Counted from the stretch's first letter, positions 3,541 to 18,701 are shown. The stretch is 64,000 nucleotides of DNA from an uncultured Alphaproteobacteria bacterium (GCA_902620425.1 CACNHX010000001.1:93471-157470), one strand, 5' to 3'. Numbers and translations are program-made. The notes: generated by a model from the sequence alone, not told the origin.

Positions 3541-4551
3541 ATGTCAGAAACTAAAAAAGTTCAAACAGGGATAAACAATATATCAGACGAATGGTTTAGG
3601 GCTAATATAGATAGAAAAACTCTAAAAAAACTTTCCAAAAGATCAGATTTTGAGGGGTGGAAACATATTATTATTTATTCACTATCATTAGGAGCTCTAG
3701 GTTTATTATCGATATATACATGGCATAGCTTGTGGTTTATACCTTTATACCTTGCTTATTCTACGATGTGGGGTGGAGCTGATGCTATTTGGCATGAGTG
3801 TGGTCATGGAACTGCTTTCAGAAATAGAAGATTAAATAAATTCTTCTATAACATTGCTAGTTTTATGAATAATTTTGAACCTGTTAGATGGAAGTGGAGT
3901 CACTCTCTTCATCATAGCTATACTGCTTCAGTTGATCCTCATGACTACGAAGTTGATGGTAGTATTTTTGCTAAACATACATTTTTAAGTTTTATTTTAA
4001 ATTTTATTCCTGGAATTGGTTTTTTTACAATTCATAAATCACTTTATGTAGAAATTATTAAACATGCTTTAGGCATTAGGACTGATGTGATGAAAGATTG
4101 CATTCCAGAAGATAAAATTAATGATTGTATAAATAGCTCTAGAATTTTTGTTCTTCTATGGATTACAATAATAGCTGTCTCAATTTACTTTTCTACCTTT
4201 TTGCCAATATTTTTATTTTTAATACCAAAGTTCTTTGGCATTAATGGTATCTGGGGTGTAACACAACATATGGGTCTTAAAGAAAGCGCCAAGGATCACC
4301 GACTATCAACAAGATCAGTTAGACTTAATCCGATTTTTAGTTTTATCTATTGGAAGATGGAATACCATATTGAGCACCATATGTTTCCTATGATACCTTC
4401 ATACAATCTTCCTAAATTATATGAAATAATAAAAGATCAAATGCCAGAACCTCAAACCCTATACCAAGCTTATAAAGAAATTTTACCTGCAGTAATAAAA
4501 AAATCTAAAAACCCTGATTATTTTATACCAGTTCAGCTACCTAACAATTAG
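3541..4551 (+). CDS. Membrane di-iron fatty-acid-desaturase-family protein (paralog 1)
   Basis: 336 aa. Three His boxes (HECGH, HSLHH, HIEHH) and several hydrophobic spans. Roughly half the positions match 17653..18651 by eye. Confidence 0.75.
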   Translation: MSETKKVQTGINNISDEWFRANIDRKTLKKLSKRSDFEGWKHIIIYSLSLGALGLLSIYTWHSLWFIPLYLAYSTMWGGADAIWHECGHGTAFRNRRLNKFFYNIASFMNNFEPVRWKWSHSLHHSYTASVDPHDYEVDGSIFAKHTFLSFILNFIPGIGFFTIHKSLYVEIIKHALGIRTDVMKDCIPEDKINDCINSSRIFVLLWITIIAVSIYFSTFLPIFLFLIPKFFGINGIWGVTQHMGLKESAKDHRLSTRSVRLNPIFSFIYWKMEYHIEHHMFPMIPSYNLPKLYEIIKDQMPEPQTLYQAYKEILPAVIKKSKNPDYFIPVQLPNN

Positions 4552-4564
4552 ATATTAATTTCAT

Positions 4565-5740
4565 TTACTTAGAGCTCAAAAAAGTACCGTAAATAAATTC
4601 ATAAAAATCCACATTTAGTTTTCTATCACCATTTAAAACGTGAGTCATTAATGTAGCAAATAAATTATTTTTTATATCTACCAAAAAATAAGTTGAAGCT
4701 GCTCCAGCCCATCCAAATTCTTCAAATTCTCCAATATTGTTATTTTTTTCTGGAAATAACATTGTCCTAAAACCTAAACCCCAACCATATGGCTCAAGAC
4801 CATTATCACCTTCTTCTGAAAGTCCATCTATCCCTTCTATTTTCATAGGTAAAAGATTTTCTGGTAAAGTATTTTTAATAATTAAATTTAAAGTTTTTTC
4901 ACTAATTATTTGAACTCCAGAATCTGATTTTCCGTTTAAAAGCATCTTACAAAATTTGTTATAATCTTTCATTGTAGAATACAGACCATGGCCTCCTCGC
5001 GCATAGGTTGCACTATTTATAGGATAATCTTGCGGATTTTTTTCTTCAATTAACTTTTTACTTTGTGAATCATATTGATACAATGTCATCAACCTCTGAG
5101 ATTTTTTATCATCTAAAGAAAATCCAGTATCTTGCATATCAAGAGGGTCAAAAATATTATCTTTTAGAATATTTTGAAGTTTCTTATTGAGAACCACCTC
5201 TAATATTCTTGCTAAAACATCTATACAAACAGAATATCGCCATTCTGTCATAGGCTGACTGTACAAAGGAAATTTAGATAATAATTTTATTTCATCAGAT
5301 AATAATCTTTCATTAAATAATTTTTGTTTCGTATACTCAGCAGCAAGCGCATCAGGAAGAAATCCGTAACTAAAGCCCGCAGTATGTTGTAAAAGATTTT
5401 TTATTGTTGGTTTTATTTTTAAGTCTTCAATATCACTTATTGATTCTTTGTTATTTTTCATAACTTTTAGATTTTGAAATTCAGTTAAATATTTATCAAT
5501 TGGATCATCTAAATTTATTAATTTTTTTTCTACAAGTTGCATTGTGACTATTGCTATAATAGGCTTAGTCATAGAAAATATTCTGTAAATAGTATCGTCT
5601 TCTATTTCTTTGAGAGTTTCAATATTTGAAAAACCAAGTTTACCAGATAAGTATTTTCCATCTTTATAAATAGACCACTGTATTCCTGGAAAAGTCTTTT
5701 GGTCTAAATAATGTTGGAAAATTTTATTTAATTCTTCCAT
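4565..5740 (-). CDS. Serine hydrolase of the beta-lactamase/PBP (class C-like) family
   Basis: 391 aa. S-x-x-K nucleophile motif FSMTKP. No obvious signal peptide. Confidence 0.7.
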   Translation of the reverse strand: MEELNKIFQHYLDQKTFPGIQWSIYKDGKYLSGKLGFSNIETLKEIEDDTIYRIFSMTKPIIAIVTMQLVEKKLINLDDPIDKYLTEFQNLKVMKNNKESISDIEDLKIKPTIKNLLQHTAGFSYGFLPDALAAEYTKQKLFNERLLSDEIKLLSKFPLYSQPMTEWRYSVCIDVLARILEVVLNKKLQNILKDNIFDPLDMQDTGFSLDDKKSQRLMTLYQYDSQSKKLIEEKNPQDYPINSATYARGGHGLYSTMKDYNKFCKMLLNGKSDSGVQIISEKTLNLIIKNTLPENLLPMKIEGIDGLSEEGDNGLEPYGWGLGFRTMLFPEKNNNIGEFEEFGWAGAASTYFLVDIKNNLFATLMTHVLNGDRKLNVDFYEFIYGTFLSSK

Positions 5741-5794
5741 ATTTAAAAATTACCACAAAATTAGGACTAATTAAATGTTTAAGTTTAATATTAA

Positions 5795-5842
5795 AAATAC
5801 TTTCCAGACTATTTTATTCCTGTTCAAGTTCCAAATAATTAA
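5795..5842 (+). pseudogene. Relic of the last ~12 codons plus stop of a desaturase-family gene
   Basis: Translates K Y F P D Y F I P V Q V P N N stop. The C-terminus of 3541..4551 is N P D Y F I P V Q L P N N stop. A TAA at 5792-5794 closes the frame upstream. About 11 of the 39 aligned nt differ from the intact copy, mostly at synonymous positions. Confidence 0.8.
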
Positions 5843-5888
5843 ACTATACTTGACACATCTTCAGCTTTAGTTTTATCTATACCTTTAT

Positions 5889-7325
5889 ATGGAGTTAAGA
5901 AATTTTATTGATGGTAAATTCATTGATTCACTCTCAAAGAAAAATATTCCTGTATTAAATCCGGCTAATCAAAAAATTGTTGGTAATATTGATGAAGCTT
6001 TGGATGAAGAAATAGATTTAGCTTTTCAGGCTGCAAAAAAAGCATTCGATAAAAGAATTTTGGTCGATATGGATGCAAAAGATAAATCAAATATGATGAG
6101 AGCCATTGCACAAAAATTAAGAGAAAGAAAAGAAGAAGGTGGTAAACTTTTAAGCCAAGAAAATGGTAAAACGATTAAACAATGTATCGATGAATTCAAA
6201 GGTGCTGCTGATACCTTTGATTTTTATGCAGGATTAACAGACAAGATAGAAAATAAATTAATTCCATCTGGTAAAGATACTTTAAACTATGTTGTTTTGG
6301 AACCCTTTGGAGTTGCGCTTCAAATTGTACCTTGGAATTATCCTGTTTCTATATTTTCTGGAATGGTTGCGCAGAATTGGATAGTAGGAAATACCATAGT
6401 TATAAAACCTCCTGAACTTTGTCCTATATCGTCTAATTTTTATGGTCAAATTTTTGAGGATGTTGGTGTTCCAAAAGGAATTATAAATATTCTTCACGGT
6501 TATGGAGAAACAACTGGTCGAAAATTAGTCCAACATCCAGGAAGTGATTATATTGTATTTACTGGATCACCTGAAGTTGCTTCAGAAATTCTTAAAGAAA
6601 CAGCAGATAGAATTATACCTACTCATTTTGAATTAGGAGGAAAGTCTGCAGCAATAATCTATCCCGATGCTGACATTGATAAAGCTGTAGACAGTACAGT
6701 TAAAGGAATTTTTAAACCAAATGCAGGTCAAATATGTGTAGCAATGTCTAGAGTAATAGTTCATCCAAAAATTAAAGATGAGTATATGACAAAGCTTGTT
6801 GCAAAAACCCAAAAATTAAAAATAGGTGCAGGCGACGAAGATGGAACGGAAGTAACACCTTTAATCTCAACTGATCAAATGCAAAGGGTTTCAAATTATG
6901 TAAAATCTGGTGTACAATCAGGTGCTACATTAACAATAGGCGGGGATAAAGCTGAGAGAGTCGATGGTAATTTTTACCAACCAACTATTTTTGATAATGT
7001 TAAAGTTGATGCAACAATTGCTCAGGAAGAAATATTTGGCCCTGTAACATCAATATTTGATTTTGAAGATGAAGAAGAAGCAATAAGTATAGCTAATTCA
7101 ACAAAATACGGTCTTGCTTCCGGAGTATTTACTTCAGATGAGCAAAAAGCAAAATGGACTGCTGATAGAATTCAGGCTGGGATAATTTGGCAAAACGATT
7201 GGTTTGTTGATGGAAATAATCTTCCAGGTGGTGGTTACAAAAGATCAGGTTATGGAAGAGATGGTGGGGTAGATGGGGTGTATAGTCACGGACAGACTAA
7301 AAGGATTAGTAAAAGACTCTACTAG
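5889..7325 (+). CDS. NAD(P)-dependent aldehyde dehydrogenase
   Basis: 478 aa. Motifs FELGGKSA, catalytic Cys in AGQICVAMSR, and EEIFGPV. Paralog of 55129..56562. Confidence 0.9.
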   Translation: MELRNFIDGKFIDSLSKKNIPVLNPANQKIVGNIDEALDEEIDLAFQAAKKAFDKRILVDMDAKDKSNMMRAIAQKLRERKEEGGKLLSQENGKTIKQCIDEFKGAADTFDFYAGLTDKIENKLIPSGKDTLNYVVLEPFGVALQIVPWNYPVSIFSGMVAQNWIVGNTIVIKPPELCPISSNFYGQIFEDVGVPKGIINILHGYGETTGRKLVQHPGSDYIVFTGSPEVASEILKETADRIIPTHFELGGKSAAIIYPDADIDKAVDSTVKGIFKPNAGQICVAMSRVIVHPKIKDEYMTKLVAKTQKLKIGAGDEDGTEVTPLISTDQMQRVSNYVKSGVQSGATLTIGGDKAERVDGNFYQPTIFDNVKVDATIAQEEIFGPVTSIFDFEDEEEAISIANSTKYGLASGVFTSDEQKAKWTADRIQAGIIWQNDWFVDGNNLPGGGYKRSGYGRDGGVDGVYSHGQTKRISKRLY

Positions 7326-7387
7326 GTTGACATTATTAATTTAATTTTTTAAGCTCATATACATTATATTTATTCAAGGGAGGAATA

Positions 7388-8377
7388 ATGAAAATATTAA
7401 AAATTTTATTATCAACACTCTTCGTTTTTTCTTTCAGTGGTTCAGTTTATGCTATTGATAAAAACTTAGGTGATGGATGGTGTAGTGATGTAAGAATTCA
7501 CTTCTTTGCTGGTGGAGCTGAAGGTGATGGTTTCGCTGGAATAGTTCAAACTGGTGCAGAAAATGCTATTAGAGACACTGGTGCTGATGCAGAAATTCTT
7601 TACTCAGAATGGCAGTCAGATAGAATGATTCAACAACTAAGAGAAGCTATTGGTGCAGGTGTTGACGGTATTGGTATGATGGGTCATCCTGGTGATGATG
7701 CAATTATGCCACTAGCAAAAATGGCTAGTGAAGCTGGTATCTTAATGATGTATCAAAACGTTGATGTTCCTGCAGTAAGAGCTGCTTATGGAGGTGGATA
7801 CGTTGGTGCAAATCTTGCAACTCAAGGTAAAGAATTAGCAAGAGAAGCAATTAGAAGATTTGATCTTAAAGCTGGTGATACAGCTATTGTTATGGTTCCA
7901 ATTGGAGATTATTCAAGAGCTCAAAGAGAAGACGGTGCTAGAATAATTTTTGAAGAACATGGAATGAACGTTGTAGTTCTAGATGGTACTCCAGAACAAG
8001 CAACTGATCCAAATCTTGCAATCCCTGTATTTTCAGCTGCCCTAGCTGCAAATCCTGATACAAAAATTATTGTACATGATGGTGGTCAGAAACTAGGAAA
8101 TGCTGAAGCATATGCTAAAGCTGCTGGATATGGTCCAGGAGAATTATTGCAAATCGGCTTTGATACTAGTCCACAAATCATGACAGCTTTTGAAAATGGT
8201 TATGTTCATTTAACTTCTGATCAGCAACCATTTTTACAAGGCTACCTACCTGTACTTGCTTTATGTCAAATGAAAGTTCTTGGAACTGGAGCATTAAATC
8301 AAGATACTGGTGCAGGATTTGTACATACTGAGAATTACAAATCAGTTATGGAACTTGCTAACGCAGGTTTAAGATAA
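7388..8377 (+). CDS. Periplasmic sugar-binding protein of a CUT2 (ribose/fructose-type) ABC importer
   Basis: 329 aa. Signal peptide MKILKILLSTLFVFSFSGSVYA. Size and adjacency to a CUT2 ATPase and permease support the call. Strong SD (GGAGG, 7379-7383). Visibly GC-richer than its neighbours. Confidence 0.75.
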   Translation: MKILKILLSTLFVFSFSGSVYAIDKNLGDGWCSDVRIHFFAGGAEGDGFAGIVQTGAENAIRDTGADAEILYSEWQSDRMIQQLREAIGAGVDGIGMMGHPGDDAIMPLAKMASEAGILMMYQNVDVPAVRAAYGGGYVGANLATQGKELAREAIRRFDLKAGDTAIVMVPIGDYSRAQREDGARIIFEEHGMNVVVLDGTPEQATDPNLAIPVFSAALAANPDTKIIVHDGGQKLGNAEAYAKAAGYGPGELLQIGFDTSPQIMTAFENGYVHLTSDQQPFLQGYLPVLALCQMKVLGTGALNQDTGAGFVHTENYKSVMELANAGLR

Positions 8378-8390
8378 ATATATCAAACAG

Positions 8391-8417: not shown

Positions 8418-8423
8418 ACATAT

Positions 8424-10144: not shown

Positions 10145-10146
10145 CG

Positions 10147-10932
10147 ATGGTAAACGTAGTTATATGGAATGAATTTGTTCATGAACAAGAGGATGAACAT
10201 GTAAAATCAATTTACCCAAAGGGAATTCACGGTTGTATTAAAGAATTTTTATCTGATGATAAAAGTCTTAATATTAAAACTGCAACATTAGAAGAAGAGG
10301 ATCATGGCTTAAGTGAAGAATTATTAGATAAAACGGATGTGTTAATTTGGTGGGGTCATAAAGCGCATAAGTTGGTTGAAGATAAAATTGTCGATAGAGT
10401 TCAGCAAAGAGTTTTAGAAGGAATGGGTCTTCTAGTATTACATTCAGGACATCATTCTAAAATTTTCAAACGAATGATGGGTACAACTGCAAATATTAGA
10501 TGGGCTGAAAGAGGTGAAATGGAAAGAGTTTGGGTTTGTAACCCAGGTCATCCTATTGCAGAAGGCTTAGGAGAATATTTTGAAATTGAGATGACCGAAA
10601 TGTATGGTGAGCCTTTTCAGGTCCCTGCCCCAGATGAAACAGTTTTTGTGAGTTGGTTTGAAGGCGGAGAGGTATTTAGATCTGGTCTTTGTTACAAAAG
10701 AGGAAATGGAAAAATATTTTATTTCAGACCAGGACATGAATCTTATCCTGTTTATTATAATAAAGATGTTCAAAGAGTAATTAAAAATTCTATTCATTGG
10801 GTTTGTCCTGAAAAAACATCTGGTTTGTGGATAGACAGAATAGCAAAAGGTATTGATAACATGGAAAGAAAAGATCCTGTTCAACCAATTGAAGTAAAAG
10901 GCTATCAAGTAGATCATAATTATAAAAAATGA
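10147..10932 (+). CDS. ThuA-like (trehalose-utilisation / class-I amidotransferase-like fold) protein
   Basis: 261 aa. Strings I associate with ThuA: VLIWWGHKAH, LLVLHSGHHSKIF, FYFRPGHESYP. Confidence 0.7.
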   Translation: MVNVVIWNEFVHEQEDEHVKSIYPKGIHGCIKEFLSDDKSLNIKTATLEEEDHGLSEELLDKTDVLIWWGHKAHKLVEDKIVDRVQQRVLEGMGLLVLHSGHHSKIFKRMMGTTANIRWAERGEMERVWVCNPGHPIAEGLGEYFEIEMTEMYGEPFQVPAPDETVFVSWFEGGEVFRSGLCYKRGNGKIFYFRPGHESYPVYYNKDVQRVIKNSIHWVCPEKTSGLWIDRIAKGIDNMERKDPVQPIEVKGYQVDHNYKK

Positions 10933-11999
10933 TTAAGTTAGGAATTGTTGGTACTGGAGGGATGGCCAATGCCCATGCGACAGCATTTAAAAACATTAAA
11001 GATGTAGAAATAGTTGCAGTTTGTGATGTCATAGAAGAAAGAGTCTTAAATTTTGCTAAAGAATATAATATTGATAAAACGTTCACATCTTTTGATGAAA
11101 TGCTTGATAAGTGTGAACTTGATGCAATAAGCAATGTAACCCCTGATTCATTTCACAAAGAAATTGCGTTAAAATCTTTAAATAAAAATAAGCACATTTT
11201 TTCAGAAAAACCTTTAGCTGAAAACTATCCAGATGCAGAGGAAATGTACAAAGCATCAGCAAATACAAACTGTATTAATATGGTTAACCTGAGTTACAGA
11301 AATTCCTCTGGTTGGCAAAACTTAAGTAAAGTTTTGCATAATAATGAATTAGGTAAAGTCAGACATGTTGATGCTAGTTATTATCAATCTTGGTTAACAT
11401 GTAAGTATTGGGGTGATTGGAAAGAGGAACAAAAATGGTTATGGAGATTATCAGAAAAGCATGGCAGTAAAGGAGTTCTTGGTGATCTTGGTGTTCATAT
11501 ATTTGATTTTGCATCGTATCCAGTTGGTAATATTAAAAAAATAAATTGTCGACTTAAAACCTTTAAAGATAAGGGCGAAAAAATTGATGAATATGTTTTA
11601 GATGCTAATGACTCTTTTATCTCAATGGTAGAATTTGATAATGGTGCCATAGGAACAATAAATTCAACTAGATTTGCAACAGGTAATGTTAATAGATTAG
11701 AGTTAAAGATATATTGTGACAAAGGTGCAGTAGCTATGAAATTTGATGATCCTATAACTCAGGGAAATTACTACTCAATTTGCACTGATATAAATGCCAC
11801 CTCTCCTAATGATGAAAAAAGTTTGGATTGGGAAATTGTAAAAACTGACCCTACTCCCTCTAACTATGAAAGATTTATAACGTCAATTATTTCTGGTAAA
11901 AATGATCAACCTGATTTCAAAAGAGGTGCTGATATTCAAAAAATTTTAGATAGTTGTTTTTTAAGTTCAGAAAAAAATGAATGGATAGATCTAAGTTAA
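10929..11999 (+). CDS. Gfo/Idh/MocA-family NAD(P) oxidoreductase (ThuB-like partner)
   Basis: 356 aa. Rossmann LGIVGTGGMANAH and EKP motif FSEKPLA. ATGA 4-nt overlap with the ThuA-like gene. Confidence 0.8.
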   Translation: MIKLGIVGTGGMANAHATAFKNIKDVEIVAVCDVIEERVLNFAKEYNIDKTFTSFDEMLDKCELDAISNVTPDSFHKEIALKSLNKNKHIFSEKPLAENYPDAEEMYKASANTNCINMVNLSYRNSSGWQNLSKVLHNNELGKVRHVDASYYQSWLTCKYWGDWKEEQKWLWRLSEKHGSKGVLGDLGVHIFDFASYPVGNIKKINCRLKTFKDKGEKIDEYVLDANDSFISMVEFDNGAIGTINSTRFATGNVNRLELKIYCDKGAVAMKFDDPITQGNYYSICTDINATSPNDEKSLDWEIVKTDPTPSNYERFITSIISGKNDQPDFKRGADIQKILDSCFLSSEKNEWIDLS

Positions 12000-12002
12000 A
12001 TA

Positions 12003-13223
12003 CTATCCTTTAATTCCTCCTGCAGTTAAGCCTCCAGTTAAGTATCTTTCAGCCCATAAAAAAACTGCTATTACAGGTACGGTTGCAATAACTGAACCAG
12101 CCATCAAATGCTGTCTTGGCACCTCTGTTCCATCTAATTGTTCTAAACCTCTTGGAAGTGTAAATATAGCTGGAGTATCTAAAAACATATATGCAAATAA
12201 ATATTCATTCCACGCTACCATAAAAATAAATAGAGAAACTGAAGCTATTGCTGGAAGTGATAAAGGTAAAGTAATTTTTAATATAACCCCAGTTCTTGAT
12301 AACCCATCAACTAAACCAGCTTCTTCCAGTTCTTGTGGTATTGTTTGAAAATATCCCTGTAACATATAAATTGCCACGGGAATAGTAACAGCAGGATAAA
12401 CAATTATTAGTCCAAATAAAGAATCTCTTAAGTTTATAAAAGTAAAAAATGAATACAAAGGGATTAACAATGTAATCATAGGAATTAAATAAATTAATAA
12501 TATTGAGTTAATCATTAATAGTTTTCCTGGAAAATTAAATCTTGCAACTGCATAAGCACCCGGTATTGCAAAAATTAAAGCAATAAAAATTGAAGATAAA
12601 GAAACTATTAATGAATTGAGTAAGTAATAACCAAATCCCCAATCAGTAAATAGTTCGATATAGCTTCTAAACATATTTAATCCTCGTGTAATATCAATTG
12701 ATAGATCAAGAGGATTAAGAATTAATAACTGATGAGTTTTTAAGCTCATCAAAATCATTACATAAAATGGAAATAATACAATTGTTAAGAAGAAAGTAAA
12801 ACCAAAACCTTTTAAAACCCTAAGAAATAAAATTTCTAAAAATAATCTATTAAAAGACATTTTATTGATTCCAGATAGACAAATAATATTGCCTATTAAT
12901 ATTATAAATGATTGGATTAATAAAAATAATATCTGCAAAAAACTATTTTCATTTATATTTAAACCATAAGGAGAAAGGCCTGTAAAAATCAAGATCAATA
13001 TAAAAGTTAAAATAAATAAACTAATATAAATTTGTAGGCTTTTTCTATCATAAAAAACAATCAATAATGTGATTATTGAAGATGAAATAATGTAAGAAAA
13101 ATAATTAAATTGAATTGTACTACCAATAAGAAGAATAAAAAATACTCCTAAAACAATATTACTGATTAACCCCCAAAATGAACTAATTATTAAAGAAATT
13201 AAAATTTTTTGACTATTGTTCAT
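12003..13223 (-). CDS. CUT1 sugar ABC permease (MalG-type) with an extra N-terminal multi-helix extension
   Basis: 406 aa. The C-terminal ~280 aa is a standard MalG-type TMD (EAA loop ELEEAGLVDGLSRTGVILKITLP, C-terminus GGLTAGGIKG). The first ~125 aa add about 4 hydrophobic helices. Confidence 0.8.
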   Translation of the reverse strand: MNNSQKILISLIISSFWGLISNIVLGVFFILLIGSTIQFNYFSYIISSSIITLLIVFYDRKSLQIYISLFILTFILILIFTGLSPYGLNINENSFLQILFLLIQSFIILIGNIICLSGINKMSFNRLFLEILFLRVLKGFGFTFFLTIVLFPFYVMILMSLKTHQLLILNPLDLSIDITRGLNMFRSYIELFTDWGFGYYLLNSLIVSLSSIFIALIFAIPGAYAVARFNFPGKLLMINSILLIYLIPMITLLIPLYSFFTFINLRDSLFGLIIVYPAVTIPVAIYMLQGYFQTIPQELEEAGLVDGLSRTGVILKITLPLSLPAIASVSLFIFMVAWNEYLFAYMFLDTPAIFTLPRGLEQLDGTEVPRQHLMAGSVIATVPVIAVFLWAERYLTGGLTAGGIKG

Positions 13224-13225
13224 TC

Positions 13226-14500
13226 TTATTCTTTCGGTGAAAATCTTATTATAAATATTGCAGCAAAAACTAATATTAAGAAAACTAATACTGCATTTGC
13301 CGCTCCAGTTCCTAAATTACCAATATTAAAACCTGTTTCATAAACATCTACAGTTAAAGTTTTAGTTCCAGCGGCACCTCCAGTTAATAAAAAAATGTCA
13401 TCAAATTTATTAAATGTCCAAATAAATCTTAGAAGAAACAAAACAAATAACACTCCTAGAATTAAGGGCCAAGTAATACTTCTAAATTTTTGCAAAGGTG
13501 TAGCACCATCAATTTCAGCAGCTTCAAAAAGTTCTTTTGGAACAGATTGTAATCTTGCTAAGATAAAAATCATCGCTAAAGGAAAATATCTCCAAGACTC
13601 AAATAAAATAACAAATGATAAAGCAACTGGGAAACTAAATTCAAAACCTAGGAAATTAATTGTCATATCTCTTACTTGTAAGAAACTAATAGGTTCATTT
13701 AAAATTTGTAATTGCGTAAGAATTCCATTGATTGTTCCAAAAAAAGGATCAGTTAAAATTTTCCAAGTAATAGTAACGGCTATAATTGGTGCAATATATG
13801 GAAATAAAAAAATACCTCGTATTATACCTCTGCCAATAAAGGTGGTCATAAGTAGTTGTGCAGCTAAAATACCAAGTGTTAACGATCCAATTGCAGAGAA
13901 TAAAGAATACGCAAAACTTATTCTAATTGTTTTCCAAAAGTTTGGTGAAGTAAATATTTCTTCAAAATTTTTTAATTTTAATTCAAGGTTTAATAATCTA
14001 TTTTCTGATTTTCCTTTAACAATTGGTGAAGTATCTTTTGGATTTTCCTGACTAATAAAATAATCATTCTCTGCGATTGTTTCAAATTTTATTTTCTTTT
14101 TTTCTTTTGGTTTAAAATCACCTAATTGACAGTTTATTATATTATCTGAGATAGAACAGTTATTAGGTAATTCTTTAATTACTAAACCTTTAGGTAAAAT
14201 ATCTTTGAAGTTTACATTTTTTATATTTGAACTTTTTGAAAAATTATTAAATCGATACTCTACTTTAGAAATATCTCCTTTTGTTTTTGGTTTTTTTTGA
14301 AATTTTTCGGTTACTTTTATTTCAGCTATTCTTAAATCAGATACAGTAACATCCTTAAAACTTATCCAAAAATTAGCAATAAGTGGAAATAATACAATAG
14401 CCATAACAATGGCCACAGTTGGGACAAGCATTGTATAGGCTTGTACTACTCCTTGTTTTTCAATGGGCCCCATTCTTTTTTTATAAGAACTGGAGCCCAT
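13226..14500 (-). CDS. CUT1 sugar ABC permease (MalF-type) with a ~130-aa hydrophilic insertion after TM1
   Basis: 424 aa. EAA loop ELFEAAEIDGATPLQKFRSITWP. The insertion spans roughly residues 55-185. The start could instead be the second Met (nt 14473). Confidence 0.8.
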   Translation of the reverse strand: MGSSSYKKRMGPIEKQGVVQAYTMLVPTVAIVMAIVLFPLIANFWISFKDVTVSDLRIAEIKVTEKFQKKPKTKGDISKVEYRFNNFSKSSNIKNVNFKDILPKGLVIKELPNNCSISDNIINCQLGDFKPKEKKKIKFETIAENDYFISQENPKDTSPIVKGKSENRLLNLELKLKNFEEIFTSPNFWKTIRISFAYSLFSAIGSLTLGILAAQLLMTTFIGRGIIRGIFLFPYIAPIIAVTITWKILTDPFFGTINGILTQLQILNEPISFLQVRDMTINFLGFEFSFPVALSFVILFESWRYFPLAMIFILARLQSVPKELFEAAEIDGATPLQKFRSITWPLILGVLFVLFLLRFIWTFNKFDDIFLLTGGAAGTKTLTVDVYETGFNIGNLGTGAANAVLVFLILVFAAIFIIRFSPKE

Positions 14501-14519
14501 TAAGATTAATTAATATAAA

Positions 14520-15860
14520 TTACAGTTTTGCTGCTTCTGAATTTAGCATATCAACAGTATCTTCCGCAGAACGATCGCCGTTAATATATTCCATCATCAG
14601 CCTATTCATTAATCCACTATTTACTAACTTAGCCGCAACAGGAAGTTGGCCTTCTTTAGCACCCCATCTTGTACCAACAGCTAATCCATTAATAAGTGAT
14701 TCAATAATTTCTTCTGAATAAATTTGGTTAATTGGAATTTTTCTATCTACTCCAATTGGCAAATTACCCCATTCTTCAATAAAGATTTTTGAACCAGCAT
14801 TAGGCCCTGGTCTAATAGGGAAACTACCTTCAGGAGCCATTCCTAACCAAGTAACATACTCTTCGTTCATAACATATTCAATGAATGCTGCTGCTTCATC
14901 AGTATTTGCATCAACAGTTACACCAAAGTTGTGAACTTCAACCCATGTTCCACCATCTGGATTAGAAGGACCAGCCATTCCTACTATAACATTAGTATCT
15001 TGTGCTAATGCTAGAGATTGTGGATTGTCATCTACCATAATTGGAACATTGTCTCTTGTACCTGCAATATCATCTAAAAGATATGAAGCCCAAAAAGTTA
15101 ATGGAACAACATCACTTGCGTAAAAGTCTCTACCATTTTGCCAGTGATGAATACCCTCAGGTGACATCCCAACTAAAGCTTTGTAAGTTTCTAACATTTC
15201 GATAGTTTTTTTCTTATCAAAGTTAATAGATCCATCTTCCTTTACTGGGTGTAATCCATTAGCAATAGCAAATGTTTCCATCCATTGACTCATAAAACCA
15301 GCTGCAACATCAGTTGGAACAATAGCTCCGTAACGATTTGGTGGATTATGAAGAGCTTTAGCTCCAGCTAAAATATTTGCATAATTAGTTGGTGTAGCTA
15401 AACCATTATCATTATAATAGCTCATACGATAGTAAGTAGCATTTGGCCATGCACCTGAAGGTACAGAAGCATATACTCCTGGCTCAACCTCTGACATAGC
15501 TAATACACCTTTTGCACTATATGTATCAATTCCTAATGAATTAACAATTTCTGTTGCAGCATCTGAATCGAATACTCCTTCATCATAAGCCCAAGCACAA
15601 AAATTAACGCATGCAGCATTAAAAATTACGTCAGGTAAACTGTTAGCAGCAAAAGCAGCAGACGCCTTTTCAATTAATTCGTCTTCTTCCTGAGGAACTA
15701 ATTTAACTTCAATTCCCGTTTTTGCTGTAAATCTTGCAATTAATTCTTCTTGAATTTGCATTCTTCCAGGTTGTGTTTCAGTAGTCCATAATGTCATACT
15801 GAAAACAGAATTAGAAAATAACAAAATAGAAGAAATAAAAGTAAATAGTATTTTTTTCAT
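14520..15860 (-). CDS. Family-1 extracellular solute-binding protein (CUT1 sugar ABC)
   Basis: 446 aa. Signal peptide MKKILFTFISSILLFSNSVFS. AGGAGG SD (complement of 15868-15873) lies 7 nt before the ATG. Confidence 0.8.
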   Translation of the reverse strand: MKKILFTFISSILLFSNSVFSMTLWTTETQPGRMQIQEELIARFTAKTGIEVKLVPQEEDELIEKASAAFAANSLPDVIFNAACVNFCAWAYDEGVFDSDAATEIVNSLGIDTYSAKGVLAMSEVEPGVYASVPSGAWPNATYYRMSYYNDNGLATPTNYANILAGAKALHNPPNRYGAIVPTDVAAGFMSQWMETFAIANGLHPVKEDGSINFDKKKTIEMLETYKALVGMSPEGIHHWQNGRDFYASDVVPLTFWASYLLDDIAGTRDNVPIMVDDNPQSLALAQDTNVIVGMAGPSNPDGGTWVEVHNFGVTVDANTDEAAAFIEYVMNEEYVTWLGMAPEGSFPIRPGPNAGSKIFIEEWGNLPIGVDRKIPINQIYSEEIIESLINGLAVGTRWGAKEGQLPVAAKLVNSGLMNRLMMEYINGDRSAEDTVDMLNSEAAKL

Positions 15861-15941
15861 ACTTAACCCTCCTAAAATAAGGAAAATTAATCACAAAAAA
15901 TACTAAATTAAAATACTAATTTTTAAGGATATTTAATTATA

Positions 15942-16766
15942 TTAAGTAAGTAATTTAGCGCTTTTTTTAAATTTTTGAAGCTCACTATTATTTATCTTTA
16001 CTATATTTCGAGATGTGACAAATTTAGTTGATTTAGCCATTTTATTAAATTTATTCACAGCCTTAACTTTTTCTCTGTAAATCTTGTCTCTTAATTTATA
16101 AATTTTAGCCAAACTAAAAGCGTGTCTTGGTATTTCTTCATTCTCACCACAAATATCATCCATAAACAAATAATTTACATCACCGTAGTTTCCCGATCCT
16201 AAAGATACTGTTATTAAATTCACATTTTCAGAAATAAATTTTAGTGTTTGATCTGCAATCACCTCTGCTTCAACAGCAAATGCTCCAGCACTTTCCATCG
16301 TTTTAAATTCTTCAAATAATTTTAAAGCCTCCGATGCAGTTTTTCCTACTCCTCTAAGTCCGCCAATCCAAATTGATTTTCTTGGCACCAAGCCTAAATG
16401 AGCCATTACTGGAATTGACTCTTTTGATAAATATTCAACTACTCTTGGTGATCTTGCCGTATAGATTGCATCAGCACCATTATTTAGAGCTTCTAAAGAT
16501 GCCTTAAGAATTTCATCATTTGTTTTAAATTCAGTGAATGGTATGGCGACCGTAATAAAATTATTTTTTGCAATTGATCTCACTTTTTTAATCGAAGCAA
16601 GACCTGTAATTAATAAATCGACTTTAGCGTCAACAGCAATATTTGCCTCCTCTTCATTTTTTACATTTATTTGGGAAAGTTTTTTTTTACCTTTATTATC
16701 AAAAAGATCTTTGATGGTATAATTTCTATAACTAAGATTTCCTGCAAAGTTATAAATTTTTTTCAT
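15942..16766 (-). CDS. PanB-like (ketopantoate hydroxymethyltransferase fold) protein, divergent
   Basis: 274 aa. PVMAHLGLVPRKSIWIGGLRGVGK and AGAFAVEAEVI align to the PanB GHLGLTPQS...GGYKVQGR and LECVP regions. The PanB GDSLG, DxPF and KxEGG motifs are not recognisable. Confidence 0.5.
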   Translation of the reverse strand: MKKIYNFAGNLSYRNYTIKDLFDNKGKKKLSQINVKNEEEANIAVDAKVDLLITGLASIKKVRSIAKNNFITVAIPFTEFKTNDEILKASLEALNNGADAIYTARSPRVVEYLSKESIPVMAHLGLVPRKSIWIGGLRGVGKTASEALKLFEEFKTMESAGAFAVEAEVIADQTLKFISENVNLITVSLGSGNYGDVNYLFMDDICGENEEIPRHAFSLAKIYKLRDKIYREKVKAVNKFNKMAKSTKFVTSRNIVKINNSELQKFKKSAKLLT

Positions 16767-16768
16767 CT

Positions 16769-17491
16769 TTACATCAAATATGCTCTTCCTCTTTGAATAC
16801 CATTGAAAGGATCAATGATATTTTCAGAAGAGTATTGAGATAAATATGCTTTGCGATTTTTTTTTGTAATATTGGCACTAGATGAATGAGGCGTTAAGCT
16901 TGAAAAGATTATCAATGTTCCTGCACTAACACAAAGCTGAATTGCATTTTTTTCATTAACTTTTATTCCTAAATCTTTTGATTTATTTTGCCATTTATGT
17001 GATTTTGCATTTTTTGTTTTTTTTAAATTTGTAGGAATAATACTCAAAGCTCCATTTTTTTCATTTGTATCGGTTAGAGCAAGCCAAACAGATATATAAG
17101 GTTTATGTCTGAAATGAATATAACCTGAATCTTGGTGCCAACTGAATGAGCTTGGTGTATTTGGACTCTTATTTACCAGTTGTTCATTAAATAAAAAAAT
17201 TTTTTTTCCTAAAAGCTTTGAGACGATATTTTTTATAAACTTTCCCTTTGCGTATGCATTTATGTGTGGATAATATTCACACTGGTTACCAAAAAATATC
17301 TTTCCATTTTTACTAATATCACCATGCTTTTTTCTTTCATTATTATTTGATTGTTTTCTATTAACACCTTTTTTAAAATCATTTATCATTTGATCTGCAT
17401 TTTTATTAAGTTTAATTAAAGTCGACTTAGGAACAATGTTTGGTAAAACGAGATATCCATTTAGTTCAAAATGTGTTTTATCTATATTCAT
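16769..17491 (-). CDS. PhyH-family Fe(II)/2-oxoglutarate dioxygenase
   Basis: 240 aa. N-terminal FELNGYLVLPN, facial-triad H-x-D in SFSWHQDSGY, distal His in LTPHSSSAN followed by Arg (NRKAY). Confidence 0.7.
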   Translation of the reverse strand: MNIDKTHFELNGYLVLPNIVPKSTLIKLNKNADQMINDFKKGVNRKQSNNNERKKHGDISKNGKIFFGNQCEYYPHINAYAKGKFIKNIVSKLLGKKIFLFNEQLVNKSPNTPSSFSWHQDSGYIHFRHKPYISVWLALTDTNEKNGALSIIPTNLKKTKNAKSHKWQNKSKDLGIKVNEKNAIQLCVSAGTLIIFSSLTPHSSSANITKKNRKAYLSQYSSENIIDPFNGIQRGRAYLM

Positions 17492-17595
17492 AATGGTTTG
17501 TTAATATCGTATCTAAAAAGACAAAAAAATCAATAAATTTGGAAAATTGATATTAGATCTAAAAATTTTATTTTTCATTTAATTTCTTCATTGTG

Positions 17596-17617
17596 ACAAA
17601 AAATAGCTATTTTTTGT
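17596..17617. promoter_or_regulatory. Perfect 22-bp palindrome (candidate operator) in a divergent promoter region
   Basis: acaaaaaatagctattttttgt equals its own reverse complement. It lies 36 nt upstream of the 17653 start and about 105 nt upstream of the divergent 17491 start. Confidence 0.3.
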
Positions 17618-17652
17618 ATTAAAATATTCTCATATTAATAGTATAAATAGGC

Positions 17653-18651
17653 ATGGTGGATAAACTTGATAATGTCGATGACAAGTGGTTTAGGGCTGAA
17701 TTAAGTAAAAAAGATCTAAAACAATTATCAAAAAAAAGTGATTTAAAAGGTTTACAACACGTAAGTCTATATTTCATTCTTTTATTTTTCTTTGGTTACA
17801 TGTCAGTAACAACATGGGGGACTTGGTGGACAGTCTTATGGCTATGGCTTTATGGTGTTCTTTTTTATTCTAGTAATCCAATCTGGCATGAGTGCGGTCA
17901 TAGAACGGCGTTTAAGTCGAAGTATTTAAATGAAATTTTTTACCAAATTGGCTCTTTTATGACTGACTTTGAACCAACAAGGTGGACATGGAGTCATTTC
18001 AGACATCATAGCAATACGTCCTCAGTGAGTGATCCTCATGATTTCGAAGCTGCTTTATTCCATCAATATCCAAGTTTAAGAAGTTTTCTATTTAGCTTTA
18101 TCCCATTCTACGAGTTAATATATTTTAAACATTCATTTAAGTATGAAATAATAAAACATGCATTAGGATTTACAACTCCTGTAATGAGAGATTGTATACC
18201 TCAAAATGAAATAGCAAAATGCCGTCTCATTTCTAGAATACATGTATTATTGTGGGTTTCATCTTTTGCTTTATCTTTCTATCTAATGAATCCTCTTCCT
18301 GCACTATTAATTTTCTTCCCTAGATACTGGGGTAACATCATTAATATATTTAATATGACGCAGCACTTAGGACTTCCAGAAGATGTAAAGGATCATAGAT
18401 ACACAACAAGATCAGTACGATTTAATCCTATATTTAGCTTTTTGTATTGGCATATGGAATATCACGTTGAACATCATATGTTCCCTTCTGTTCCCTCTTA
18501 TAATTTACCAAAACTAAGTAATTTAATAAAAGATCAACTACCTAAAGCTAACACTAGCTTATATGATGCTTATAAAGAAATAATTCCTGCCATAATTAAA
18601 CAACATAAAGATAATAATTACTTTATTCAAAAAGAAGTACCAAATACATAA
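17653..18651 (+). CDS. Membrane di-iron fatty-acid-desaturase-family protein (paralog 2)
   Basis: 332 aa. His boxes HECGH, HFRHH and HVEHH. Shares the N-terminal WFRA..L..LSK.SD motif with paralog 1. Confidence 0.75.
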   Translation: MVDKLDNVDDKWFRAELSKKDLKQLSKKSDLKGLQHVSLYFILLFFFGYMSVTTWGTWWTVLWLWLYGVLFYSSNPIWHECGHRTAFKSKYLNEIFYQIGSFMTDFEPTRWTWSHFRHHSNTSSVSDPHDFEAALFHQYPSLRSFLFSFIPFYELIYFKHSFKYEIIKHALGFTTPVMRDCIPQNEIAKCRLISRIHVLLWVSSFALSFYLMNPLPALLIFFPRYWGNIINIFNMTQHLGLPEDVKDHRYTTRSVRFNPIFSFLYWHMEYHVEHHMFPSVPSYNLPKLSNLIKDQLPKANTSLYDAYKEIIPAIIKQHKDNNYFIQKEVPNT

Positions 18652-18701
18652 TTTTTTTTTTACTTTTTTATTTATTCATTTTTTTTTTGAGTTTATAAAA
18701 A

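What the first reader, a model, noticed from the sequence alone, without database searches (positions are those of the whole stretch)
3541..18701. Recurring desaturase-first architecture in front of sugar-transport/oxidoreductase operons
Paralog 2 (17653..18651) lies 50 nt upstream of, and co-oriented with, the Gfo/Idh/MocA-PHP-sulfatase-CUT1 array. The relic at 5795-5842 shows that another family member once lay 47 nt upstream of, and co-oriented with, the ALDH-CUT2-ThuA-Gfo/Idh/MocA array. Paralog 1 is now displaced by one inserted gene. A membrane di-iron His-box enzyme is not an expected first gene of soluble sugar catabolic operons, and here it occurs twice. The three same-orientation copies also bracket a 13-kb block and could act as recombination anchors for cassette exchange. 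Possible roles include oxidation or cleavage of a lipid-linked or ether-linked glycoside before import, or membrane remodelling coupled to transporter expression. Both are speculative.
Basis: partly seen in the sequence, partly recalled or inferred. Interest (0 to 1): 0.55.

Follow-up and report, generated by a model that had tools for sequence, protein, structure and literature searches.

The report
MocD-type membrane oxygenases bracketing sugar operons
The two "fatty acid desaturases" are most likely not lipid enzymes but relatives of MocD, the membrane iron oxygenase that rhizobia use to break down a methylated sugar-like compound, and here they flank a conserved sugar uptake and oxidation unit in a swap-prone region of an abundant ocean bacterium.

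Summary
Two paralogs (3541-4551 and 17653-18651, 51% identical) and a 13-codon relic (5804-5842) are present. In 33 of 34 related HIMB59-order genomes, paralog 1 sits 43-46 nt in front of the ALDH-CUT2-ThuA-Gfo/Idh/MocA array. The window alone carries an inserted beta-lactamase-fold gene there.

The interpretation needs correcting. The proteins align end to end (37-38% identity, E about 1e-75) with MocD, the oxygenase of the rhizopine catabolic mocDEF system. That system is encoded beside the founding MocA dehydrogenase and a sugar-binding protein, so the architecture has a precedent from 1998.

Relatives elsewhere sit next to, or are fused to, Rieske ferredoxins and reductases. They recur beside CUT2 transporters, ALDH, a PanB-like enzyme and sugar oxidoreductases.

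Paralog 2 is "first gene" in only 9 of 47 genomes. In 34 it follows the Gfo gene by about 60 nt, between two flexible cassette slots.

The paralogs are too diverged to recombine with each other (longest exact match 15 nt). Cassette exchange fits allelic recombination in conserved flanks.

The most likely role is cytoplasmic hydroxylation or O-demethylation of an imported methylated sugar or cyclitol. The substrate is unknown. Interest is moderate.

The parts
3541..4551 (+). Paralog 1 (DES1): a MocD-family membrane di-iron oxygenase. Its last 13 codons or so (4513-4551) differ from all relatives.
   Evidence: Pfam FA_desaturase 6e-36. 37% identity and E 4e-74 to MocD of a canonical moc locus. 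Orthologs are present in the 33 related genomes that carry this junction. dN/dS 0.064 over the 31 full-length DES1 sequences analysed, the window's included. The 3' tail is atypical.
4565..5740 (-). Inserted beta-lactamase-fold serine hydrolase gene. It is tail to tail with DES1, separated by 13 nt.
   Evidence: Pfam Beta-lactamase 5e-50. The NCBIfam hit to the AcmB-like esterase model is below cut-off. Absent from all 46 related genomes. The synteny break lies at W4550|W5803. Found with the relic on Tara scaffolds L089, L090 and L097.
5804..5842 (+). Relic: the native last 12 codons plus stop of DES1, left behind by the insertion.
   Evidence: 12 of 13 match to the DES1 C-terminus. Nearly identical to the DES1 3' ends of L030, L032, L045 and L046.
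5843..5888 (+). Conserved DES1-ALDH spacer containing CTTGACAC (5849-5856).
   Evidence: A TTGAC core of this motif is kept in all 34 related genomes; the full CTTGACAC in 33, and L026 has CTTGACCA. No promoter or terminator call rose above the shuffled controls.
5889..7325 (+). Aldehyde dehydrogenase, the first gene after DES1.
   Evidence: Pfam Aldedh 1e-147. The same DES-then-ALDH adjacency occurs in unrelated contig L088.
7388..10144 (+). CUT2 ABC transporter: SBP 7388-8377, ATPase 8424-9170, permease 9170-10144.
   Evidence: Peripla_BP_4 5e-26. The weak NCBIfam match to the rhizopine SBP model (3e-21) is far below cut-off. PDB relatives are monosaccharide-binding proteins.
10147..11999 (+). 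ThuA-like protein (10147-10932) and Gfo/Idh/MocA dehydrogenase (10929-11999).
   Evidence: Pfam. The nearest solved relatives are levoglucosan dehydrogenase, DgpA and scyllo-inositol dehydrogenase.
12003..17491 (-). Upstream flexible slot cassette: two CUT1 permeases, SBP (14520-15860), PanB-like (15942-16766) and PhyH dioxygenase (16769-17491).
   Evidence: The full cassette is present in 7 of 47 genomes, PhyH alone in 5, and the slot is empty in 34. The PanB-like protein is 35% identical (E 1e-56) to the PanB-like gene that follows rhizobial mocDEF-like genes.
17596..17617 (.). Perfect 22-bp palindrome ACAAAAAATAGCTATTTTTTGT, 35 nt upstream of DES2. It is a candidate operator.
   Evidence: The corresponding position in many relatives holds AGACAAA-N10-TTTGTCT.
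17653..18651 (+). Paralog 2 (DES2): a MocD-family oxygenase and a conserved island between two flexible slots.
   Evidence: Pfam 4e-32. 38% identity and E 2e-76 to MocD. 46 orthologs at 81-97% identity. Homology to genomes with other cassettes covers only about W17593-18653. dN/dS 0.045.
18702..27051 (+). Downstream flexible slot cassette: Gfo/Idh/MocA, a possible PHP-like metallohydrolase, sulfatase, CUT1 SBP, two permeases and an ATPase.
   Evidence: Pfam and NCBIfam. This variant occurs in 9 of 47 genomes. Three other cassette variants occupy the same slot.
27247..28398 (-). FAD-dependent (DAO family) oxidoreductase: the conserved right flank of the downstream slot.
   Evidence: Pfam DAO 2e-51. 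Present after the slot in every related genome whose contig reaches that far.

Best explanation
DES1 and DES2 are old, selectively maintained paralogs of the MocD family. This family consists of membrane-embedded di-iron (His-box) oxygenases within the fatty-acid-desaturase superfamily.

Inferred mechanism. Electrons pass from NAD(P)H through a flavoprotein reductase and a small iron-sulfur protein (a Rieske-type MocE, a 2Fe-2S ferredoxin or a rubredoxin) to the di-iron centre on the cytoplasmic face. There O2 is activated and a C-H bond of a polar, imported substrate is hydroxylated.

Precedent. In rhizobia the MocDEF system is assigned the conversion of 3-O-methyl-scyllo-inosamine to scyllo-inosamine, an oxidative O-demethylation.

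Proposed role here (inferred). In this HIMB59-order genome the two paralogs bracket a conserved unit: DES1, ALDH, CUT2 transporter, ThuA, Gfo/Idh/MocA, DES2. I propose that they unblock a methylated or otherwise C-H-protected sugar or cyclitol brought in by the adjacent transporter. The NAD-dependent sugar oxidoreductases can then act on it. The released or resulting aldehyde would be handled by the ALDH and, where present, the PanB-like enzyme. No redox partner is encoded in the 64 kb window, so it must be supplied in trans.

Appearance of 'desaturase-first'. The placement of DES2 in front of the sulfatase/CUT1 array is a by-product of cassette replacement on both sides of DES2, in a flexible genomic island. 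The relic at 5804-5842 marks the insertion of a hydrolase gene. That gene arrived carrying the 3' end of a foreign DES1 allele.

What is shown: family membership, conservation, the partner genes and the island structure. What is inferred: the substrate class, the reaction and co-transcription.
For: Family.
- DES1 as a tblastn query hits 279 rhizobial plasmid records at 36-39% identity over 95-100% of its length, with E 1e-55 to 1e-62. One hit is annotated 'hydrocarbon oxygenase MocD-like'.
- Locus L082 carries MocR (NF052281, 632 bits), MocE (TIGR02377, 178 bits, above cut-off), iolE, Gfo/Idh/MocA and a sugar SBP around the matching gene. It is therefore a canonical moc locus. That MocD is 38% identical to DES2 (E 2e-76) and 37% identical to DES1 (E 4e-74).
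- The alignment is collinear, with shared His boxes and a shared N-terminal W...K.L..RSD motif.
- Against NCBIfam, bona fide MocD gives the same weak DesB/GntB pattern as the window proteins. No closer curated family exists.

Redox partners.
- A Pelagibacter single-cell genome (L056) has the homolog next to a Rieske protein 53% identical to MocE and a reductase 32% identical to MocF.
- 27 Pelagibacteraceae species carry homolog, then Fer2 ferredoxin, then a TrxB/FNR-like reductase.
- Natural fusions exist of the family to Rieske, to Rieske plus NAD_binding_1, and to rubredoxin plus rubredoxin reductase.

Recurring catabolic context in independent lineages.
- Rieske, DES, PanB-like, CUT2, GH4.
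- DES, DES, ALDH, PanB-like, CUT2.
- SDR, Gfo, DES, PanB-like, glyoxalase, xylose-isomerase-like TIM barrel.
- HpcH aldolase, DES, PanB-like; and DES, DES beside CUT1 permeases.
- In rhizobia: LacI, MocD-like, MocE, reductase, PanB-like.

Functional constraint. dN/dS is 0.05-0.06 for both paralogs.

Island structure. See, and the flexible-island concept for HIMB59 in PMC10734472.

Literature on MocD. PMC2593844 states the conversion of 3-O-MSI to SI. PMC10107442 reports that the mocD promoter is induced 93-fold by scyllo-inosamine. PMC5132102 is also relevant.
Against: - No MocE, MocF, ferredoxin or reductase homolog lies in the 64 kb window (tblastn E < 1e-3).
- The window's SBP and dehydrogenases are not orthologs of MocB and MocA. 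There is no blastp hit to MocB, and only 22-25% identity to MocA. This is not a rhizopine locus, and the substrate cannot be read from homology.
- MocD's reaction rests on genetics and a model (Bahar et al. 1998). To my knowledge it has not been tested on purified enzyme.
- The commonest Pelagibacteraceae context (proteorhodopsin, homolog, ferredoxin, reductase, GST) is not a sugar context.
- The whole window is dense in sugar genes, so adjacency within this genome alone proves little.
- Co-transcription is untested. The conserved TTGAC-core motif (CTTGACAC in 33 of 34 relatives) in the DES1-ALDH spacer and the palindrome before DES2 suggest separate promoters.
- The tree that pairs DES1 and DES2 with the tandem copies of L088 is neighbour-joining without support values.
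Confidence: 0.6

Rival explanations
1. The proteins are true acyl-lipid desaturases or hydroxylases with a housekeeping or membrane-remodelling role. Their position next to sugar operons would be incidental.
For: They match Pfam FA_desaturase, and public annotations call relatives 'fatty acid desaturase' or 'stearoyl-CoA 9-desaturase'. There are weak NCBIfam matches to DesA and DesB. In Pelagibacteraceae the homolog lies in a conserved, non-catabolic setting with a ferredoxin and a reductase, which is also how cyanobacterial lipid desaturases are supplied with electrons (my own knowledge).
Against: The matches to DesA and DesB score 28-49 bits against cut-offs of 500, while identity to MocD is 37-38% across the whole length. 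Linkage to a Rieske MocE, a PanB-like enzyme, CUT2 transporters, ALDH and Gfo/Idh/MocA recurs in unrelated lineages. A single locus can hold two to three copies (L056 two, L063 three), which is atypical of a housekeeping desaturase. The mocD promoter responds to scyllo-inosamine (PMC10107442).
Confidence: 0.12
2. There is no functional link. DES1 and DES2 are simply conserved core genes that happen to flank flexible genomic islands, so neighbouring cassettes change around them by allelic recombination.
For: Homology breaks fall at the borders of DES2, with three upstream and four downstream cassette states that assort largely independently. DES2 is often followed by a convergent LacI gene or a gap of about 150 nt. 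The entire window is sugar-related. HIMB59 is known to keep flexible islands at fixed positions (PMC10734472).
Against: The DES1-then-ALDH-CUT2 adjacency is fixed at 43-46 nt in 33 of 34 genomes, and it reappears in unrelated contigs (L088, L084) with different gene partners. The tandem pair in L088 contains a sister of each paralog in front of one operon. The PanB-like partner is shared with rhizobia.
Confidence: 0.15
3. One reading: the enzyme oxidises or cleaves a lipid-linked or long-chain ether-linked glycoside at the membrane before import. Alternatively it is an AlkB-like hydrocarbon hydroxylase.
For: The superfamily includes AlkB and XylM. Distant members are fused to rubredoxin and rubredoxin reductase, as in alkane hydroxylase systems. 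The only PDB sequence match is AlkB. MocD was originally named 'hydrocarbon oxygenase'.
Against: The AlkB match has E = 0.066 over 80 residues. Redox partners, including fused ones, are cytoplasmic, which places catalysis after uptake (inference). The one member with a genetic assignment acts on a small polar cyclitol (PMC2593844). No lipid or alkane genes lie nearby.
Confidence: 0.08

Closest known systems
MocD of the mocDEF rhizopine (3-O-methyl-scyllo-inosamine) catabolic oxygenase system of Sinorhizobium meliloti L5-30 and Rhizobium leguminosarum bv. viciae
   Same: Full-length collinear homology at 37-38% identity (E about 1e-75). The His boxes and the N-terminal motif are shared. The genomic company is similar: Gfo/Idh/MocA dehydrogenases, a periplasmic sugar-binding protein and an ABC transporter. 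SAR11 relatives sit beside MocE-like Rieske and MocF-like reductase genes.
   Different: The window holds no MocE, MocF or MocR. Its SBP and dehydrogenases are not orthologs of MocB and MocA. There are two paralogs bracketing the unit, plus added ALDH and ThuA genes. The organism is a marine oligotroph for which rhizopine is not an expected substrate, so the substrate is probably different.
Rhizobial 'MocD-like' clusters of unknown function (LacI, MocD-like, MocE, FAD reductase, PanB-like) on pSymB and Rhizobium chromids
   Same: The same oxygenase family, and the same PanB-like partner: 35% identity and E 1e-56 to window gene 15942-16766. A LacI-type regulator and a xylose-isomerase-like TIM-barrel protein lie nearby.
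   Different: The rhizobial clusters encode the redox partners in cis and no transporter in the operon. In the window the PanB-like gene lies in an optional cassette on the opposite strand.
GntB, the transmembrane L-arginine gamma-hydroxylase of guanitoxin biosynthesis
   Same: A membrane His-box enzyme of the same superfamily that acts on a small polar molecule rather than a lipid. It is the best or second-best NCBIfam match for DES1, DES2 and MocD itself (bioRxiv 10.1101/2023.03.21.533663).
   Different: The similarity is only at superfamily level (33-51 bits against a cut-off of 380). GntB is biosynthetic rather than catabolic.
Cytochrome P450, ferredoxin and ferredoxin reductase system that demethylates 6-O-methyl-D-galactose in marine Flavobacteriia
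   Same: A functional analogy for the proposed role: a three-component oxygenase that removes a methyl ether from an algal sugar inside a sugar-utilisation locus. It releases formaldehyde, which needs downstream handling (PMC9400963, PMC10033563).
   Different: The catalyst is unrelated: a soluble haem P450 rather than a membrane di-iron enzyme. There is no sequence relationship.
Flexible genomic islands of HIMB59 and other streamlined marine bacteria
   Same: Alternative cassettes of equivalent function (here sugar ABC transporters) occupy the same chromosomal position between conserved flanks, and their distribution does not track phylogeny (PMC10734472).
   Different: The islands described for HIMB59 concern phosphate and phosphonate. 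This sugar-transporter island with a single conserved gene between two slots is not described in that paper.

Membership tests
Fatty-acid-desaturase superfamily (Pfam PF00487, membrane di-iron His-box enzymes) | A match to the family profile above the curated threshold | tested here: met
   125 and 112.5 bits against a cut-off of 29.7.
Fatty-acid-desaturase superfamily (Pfam PF00487, membrane di-iron His-box enzymes) | Three conserved histidine boxes | tested here: met
   HECGH, H(S/F)xHH and H(I/V)EHH, plus a conserved QH and DHR. All are invariant in alignments A1 and A2.
MocD family (oxygenase component of MocDEF) | Full-length homology to MocD from a locus that also carries MocR, MocE and MocF | tested here: met
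   38% and 37% identity over 324 aa, with E 2e-76 and 4e-74, to the gene in L082. That locus has MocR (632 bits) and MocE (178 bits, above cut-off).
MocD family (oxygenase component of MocDEF) | Clear separation from other desaturase subfamilies | tested here: met
   MocD-type plasmid hits give 31-39% identity with E < 1e-45. The next desaturase class gives 24.5% identity with E 3e-9. Scores against the DesA, DesB, CrtW and CrtR models are far below cut-off.
MocD family (oxygenase component of MocDEF) | An adjacent Rieske ferredoxin (MocE) and FAD reductase (MocF) | tested here: not met
   None in the 64 kb window. The feature is met in related loci L056, L084 and L081-L083, and through gene fusions.
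MocD family (oxygenase component of MocDEF) | Conversion of 3-O-methyl-scyllo-inosamine to scyllo-inosamine, or another O-demethylation | not testable with these tools
   Needs enzymology or genetics.
Rhizopine catabolism (moc) locus | Orthologs of MocA, MocB, MocC and MocR alongside MocDEF | tested here: not met
   The L082 SBP taken as MocB has no blastp hit in the window. MocA shows only family-level similarity (22-25% identity). The window SBP scores 76 bits against the rhizopine SBP model, whose cut-off is 420. MocC and MocR homologs were not searched for: L082 iolE (MocC) returned no blastp hit against any locus or the window at E 1e-5, and MocR was never used as a query.
Acyl-lipid desaturases (DesA/DesB type) | A score above the curated equivalog cut-off | tested here: not met
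   28-49 bits against a cut-off of 500.
AlkB-type alkane hydroxylases | Sequence or fold similarity to solved AlkB | tested here: not met
   A profile search of the PDB gives 8f6t at E = 0.066 over about 80 residues. Foldseek on an AF2 model (pLDDT 75) gave no AlkB match.
Flexible genomic island (replacement type) | Different cassettes at the same position between conserved flanks in related genomes | tested here: met
   Three states upstream and four downstream of DES2 in 47 genomes, with homology breaks at the DES2 borders.

The most novel reading that the evidence does not exclude
MocD-like oxygenases, together with the divergent PanB-like (ketopantoate-hydroxymethyltransferase-fold) enzyme that accompanies them from rhizobia to SAR11 and HIMB59, form an undescribed two-enzyme system for removing C1 groups. 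The membrane oxygenase would hydroxylate an O- or C-methyl group of a methylated sugar or cyclitol. The PanB-like enzyme, or the ALDH, would then pass the resulting one-carbon unit to tetrahydrofolate or oxidise it. This would give the most abundant ocean oligotrophs access to methylated carbohydrates, using a catalyst unrelated to the flavobacterial P450 demethylase.
Probability: 0.2. Interest if true: 0.7.

Novelty: new variant of a known kind. Interest (0 to 1): 0.42.

Why it matters
These genes are annotated everywhere as 'fatty acid desaturase', which hides a likely catabolic oxygenase. The lineages concerned, HIMB59/AEGEAN-169 and SAR11, dominate ocean surface waters.

If the enzymes unblock methylated or otherwise protected sugars or cyclitols, they define a route into a pool of marine dissolved organic carbon. 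They would also give the long-known but biochemically uncharacterised MocD family a wider role.

The locus is also a clean natural example of how streamlined genomes exchange transporter cassettes around a fixed gene. The relic shows how an insertion can leave a datable scar.

None of this overturns current understanding. It is a re-annotation with a testable hypothesis.

Tried and rejected
- Sequence search of the PDB with a family profile. Only AlkB came up, at E 0.066.
- AlphaFold2 model (pLDDT 75) searched with Foldseek against the PDB. The best matches (TM 0.56) were chains of chloroplast Ycf2-FtsHi complexes. There was nothing informative about substrate.
- NCBIfam. No curated model exists for MocD. 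Only weak DesA, DesB, GntB, CrtW and CrtR matches appeared.
- Promoter and terminator scans around both paralogs. Counts did not exceed the shuffled controls, so co-transcription could not be judged.
- Search of the window for ferredoxin, Rieske or reductase partners. None found.
- Test of whether the palindrome before DES2 or the CTTGACAC motif marks a regulon in the window. Neither was enriched.
- Recombination between the paralogs themselves. Rejected, because the longest exact match is 15 nt.
- Literature searches for SAR11 or HIMB59 desaturases linked to sugar use, and for pinitol demethylation by MocD-like genes. Nothing relevant was found. The pinitol paper implicates fungal P450s and no bacterial demethylase.
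- Search for a donor arrangement of the inserted hydrolase. Only short Tara contigs exist. One diverged contig (L096) has the hydrolase next to ALDH without the relic, but it ends before DES1.

Full report
OBSERVATION

The window has about 29% G+C. It holds two co-oriented ORFs, 3541-4551 (336 aa) and 17653-18651 (332 aa). Both match Pfam FA_desaturase (E 6e-36 and 4e-32), and they are 51% identical to each other.

A third piece at 5804-5842 reads PDYFIPVQVPNN*. The C-terminus of paralog 1 reads PDYFIPVQLPNN*. Twelve of 13 positions match, while the next best of about 128,000 six-frame 13-mers in the window matches 6. Only 29 of 39 nucleotides are identical, so the piece comes from a different allele that had been under protein-level constraint.

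Paralog 2 ends 50 nt before a co-oriented Gfo/Idh/MocA gene. The relic ends 46 nt before the ALDH gene. The 'PHP' ORF has no Pfam hit and only a weak CehA/McbA-type metallohydrolase match.

LINEAGE AND CONSERVED MAP

A scan of one genome per species found 560 loci encoding relatives, of which the best 80 were kept. Forty-six of them (81-97% identical to paralog 2) are single-cell genomes. The supplement of PMC10734472 places four of these (AG-909-O11, AG-891-K05, AG-894-N13 and AG-337-I02) in order HIMB59, family GCA-002718135, genus AG-337-I02; the placement is extended to the others by similarity. I called ORFs on all loci and clustered them. The map is:

Ugd (reverse), DES1, ALDH, CUT2 SBP, ATPase, permease, ThuA, Gfo/Idh/MocA, [upstream slot], DES2, [downstream slot], DAO-family oxidoreductase (reverse), HAD hydrolase (reverse).

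- DES1 precedes ALDH by 43-46 nt in 33 of 34 genomes.
- The upstream slot is empty in 34 of 47 genomes, and Gfo-to-DES2 is then 58-64 nt.
- The upstream slot holds a PhyH gene in 5 genomes. It holds a reverse-strand CUT1 transporter with PanB-like and PhyH genes in 7, the window included.
- The downstream slot holds one of four cassettes. The Gfo2, PHP-like, sulfatase, CUT1 version seen in the window occurs in 9 genomes.
- Elsewhere DES2 is followed by a convergent LacI gene (6-17 nt) or by a 119-161 nt gap before a binding-protein gene.
- DNA homology between the window and genomes with other cassettes covers only about 17593-18653, that is DES2 and 60 nt upstream.
- Both paralogs are under strong purifying selection (median dN/dS 0.064 and 0.045).

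THE RELIC

- In relatives, the window aligns up to 4550 and resumes at 5803. Positions 5803-5842 align to the same last 40 nt of DES1.
- The relic and the following spacer are almost base-for-base the native sequence of L030, L032, L045 and L046. The present 3' end of DES1 (…CAGCTACCTAACAATTAG) differs from all 34 relatives.
- The hydrolase gene 4565-5740 therefore arrived together with the terminal codons of a foreign DES1 allele, and it displaced the native end.
- The likely route is one crossover within DES1 and one illegitimate join. This is an inference.
- The hydrolase is absent from all 46 relatives.
- Three Tara scaffolds from different samples carry the same arrangement at 98-99.5% identity.
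- A more diverged scaffold (84% identity) has the hydrolase next to ALDH without the relic. The scar is therefore being lost, or it formed only once in one branch.
- The flanks are mosaic. The Ugd-DES1 segment is closest to L034, L037 and L038 (93%). The ALDH segment is closest to L004 and L027 (93%).

WHAT THE PROTEINS ARE

NCBIfam gives only weak matches: GntB 1e-13 and DesB 7e-13, both far below cut-off.

A translated search of plasmids was decisive. It returned 279 records, nearly all Rhizobium or Sinorhizobium, at 36-39% identity over 95-100% of the protein, with E 1e-55 to 1e-62.
- One hit is annotated 'hydrocarbon oxygenase MocD-like'. It is followed by a Rieske 'MocE-like' gene, an FAD reductase and a PanB-like gene.
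- A second lies in a canonical rhizopine locus. That locus has a regulator scoring 632 bits on the MocR model, the oxygenase, a MocE ferredoxin above its cut-off, a reductase, iolE, Gfo/Idh/MocA genes and a sugar-binding protein.
- That MocD is 38% identical to DES2 (E 2e-76) and 37% identical to DES1 (E 4e-74).
- It aligns without rearrangement and shares all His boxes.
- MocD itself gives the same weak NCBIfam pattern.

The literature assigns MocD the conversion of 3-O-methyl-scyllo-inosamine to scyllo-inosamine (PMC2593844, citing Bahar et al. 1998). It also shows that the mocD promoter is induced 93-fold by scyllo-inosamine (PMC10107442). No member has a solved structure.

ELECTRON SUPPLY AND TOPOLOGY

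- No partner gene lies in the window.
- In a Pelagibacter genome (L056) a homolog is followed by a reductase 32% identical to MocF and a Rieske protein 53% identical to MocE.
- In 27 Pelagibacteraceae species the order is proteorhodopsin, homolog, 2Fe-2S ferredoxin, TrxB/FNR-like reductase, GST.
- An exhaustive search found 92 cluster representatives at E ≤ 1e-30.
- Several of these are natural fusions: to a Rieske domain, to Rieske plus an NAD-binding reductase domain, or to rubredoxin plus rubredoxin reductase.
- These soluble cytoplasmic partners place catalysis on the cytoplasmic side, after uptake of the substrate. This is an inference.

DOES THE CONTEXT RECUR ELSEWHERE?

It does. The contexts found are:
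- Rieske (reverse), DES, PanB-like, CUT2 transporter, GH4.
- DES, DES, ALDH, PanB-like, CUT2.
- SDR, Gfo/Idh/MocA, DES, PanB-like (reverse), glyoxalase, xylose-isomerase-like TIM barrel.
- CUT2 (reverse), DES, reductase (L056, L061).
- Three copies among Gfo, CUT2, PanB-like and FA_hydroxylase genes (L063).
- HpcH/HpaI aldolase, DES, PanB-like; and DES, DES next to CUT1 permeases.

The most constant partner is the divergent PanB-like protein. The window's copy (15942-16766) is 35% identical (E 1e-56) to the one that follows rhizobial MocD-like genes. It scores well below the true PanB cut-offs.

A neighbour-joining tree without support values places DES1 with the second copy of the L088 tandem and DES2 with the first copy. 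This suggests an old tandem pair working in one pathway. The one clearly non-catabolic context is the Pelagibacteraceae proteorhodopsin neighbourhood.

INTERPRETATION

1. A membrane His-box enzyme in a sugar or cyclitol locus is not new. It is the MocD situation.
2. Only DES1 is robustly 'first'. DES2 is better described as the last member of the conserved unit, or as a separately regulated gene. A perfect 22-bp palindrome lies 35 nt upstream of it, at 17596-17617. DES2 happens to sit between two replaceable cassettes.
3. The copies cannot serve as recombination partners for each other. They are 65-67% identical, and the longest exact match is 15 nt. Exchange is allelic, between genomes, as described for HIMB59 flexible islands (PMC10734472).
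4. The most likely chemistry is hydroxylation or O-demethylation of an imported polar substrate. This would feed the neighbouring NAD-dependent sugar oxidoreductases. Their nearest solved relatives are levoglucosan, C-glycoside and scyllo-inositol dehydrogenases. The ALDH or the PanB-like enzyme would deal with the aldehyde or C1 product. The flavobacterial P450 system for 6-O-methyl-galactose is a functional analogue (PMC9400963).

The substrate is unknown, and the reaction is inferred from one genetically characterised relative.

CAVEATS

- Only the best 80 of 560 genome hits were examined, and they are biased towards close relatives.
- ORFs were called with a simple rule.
- The metagenome contigs lack taxonomy.
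- The whole window is a sugar-utilisation region with five Gfo/Idh/MocA genes, a GH20, sulfatase, TauD, dehydratases and several ABC systems. Adjacency within this genome alone is therefore weak evidence.

VERDICT

This is a new variant of a known kind: a MocD-type oxygenase locus in a marine oligotroph, with two paralogs, no redox partners in cis, and a position inside a flexible island. Interest is moderate. It would rise if the MocD-like and PanB-like pair proves to be a demethylation system for marine methylated carbohydrates.

Noticed in passing
window 17596-17617: A perfect 22-bp palindrome, ACAAAAAATAGCTATTTTTTGT, lies 35 nt upstream of DES2. Relatives with a different upstream neighbour carry an analogous inverted repeat (AGACAAA-N10-TTTGTCT) at the same place. 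This could be an operator, which would mean DES2 is regulated on its own.
   Followed up: partly
window 5849-5856 (spacer 5843-5888): A TTGAC core of CTTGACAC in the DES1-ALDH spacer is kept in all 34 related genomes (full CTTGACAC in 33; L026 has CTTGACCA), although synonymous sites nearby vary. It may be the -35 element or an operator of the ALDH operon. It is not enriched elsewhere in the window.
   Followed up: partly
L050-L080, e.g. L057 7127-11021: In 27 Pelagibacteraceae species-level genomes a MocD-family gene sits between the proteorhodopsin gene and a module of 2Fe-2S ferredoxin, TrxB/FNR-like reductase and GST. This is a conserved, non-sugar context of unknown meaning.
   Followed up: partly
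proteins P0125, P0130, P0132, P0147, P0155, P0224, P0238, P0241: Natural fusions of MocD-family domains to Rieske, to Rieske plus an NAD-binding reductase, or to rubredoxin plus rubredoxin reductase. These are self-sufficient single-chain versions of the three-component system.
   Followed up: partly
window 15942-16766; L081 11649-12458; L083 10958-11758; L084 6593-7390; L088 3565-4368: A divergent PanB-like (Pantoate_transf) protein, well below the true PanB thresholds, is the most constant neighbour of MocD-family genes from rhizobia to SAR11 and HIMB59. Its function is unknown.
   Followed up: partly
L096 (Tara scaffold, 1592 nt): A hydrolase 88% identical in protein (84% in DNA) to the inserted gene lies directly next to ALDH, with the 35-nt relic precisely missing. 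Either the scar was deleted in that lineage or it formed only in the window's branch.
   Followed up: partly
window 16769-17491 with 18702-22685; loci L001, L002, L011, L029-L031, L043: In every genome where the upstream side is visible (8 of 8), the PhyH dioxygenase gene accompanies the Gfo2, PHP-like, sulfatase cassette on the other side of DES2. The homology block is continuous from PhyH through DES2 into the cassette, so this set may move as one piece.
   Followed up: partly
window 2762-7500: The similarity is mosaic. The Ugd-DES1 segment is closest to L034, L037 and L038 (93%). The ALDH segment is closest to L004 and L027 (93%). This points to recombination among co-occurring lineages.
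   Followed up: no
window 28000-64000: The rest of the window is one long carbohydrate and amine utilisation region. It holds an enolase-superfamily dehydratase, a GMC oxidoreductase, SIS and NagA-like genes, GH20, galactokinase, TauD, three further Gfo/Idh/MocA genes (five in the whole window), SDRs, an altronate/galactarate dehydratase, an Fe-ADH, two more ALDHs, a glutamine-synthetase-like gene and further ABC systems.
   Followed up: partly
L087 (metagenome scaffold): The contig is a mirror image of itself: Rieske, DES, PanB-like, SBP, ATPase, then the same genes inverted. This is probably an assembly artefact.
   Followed up: no
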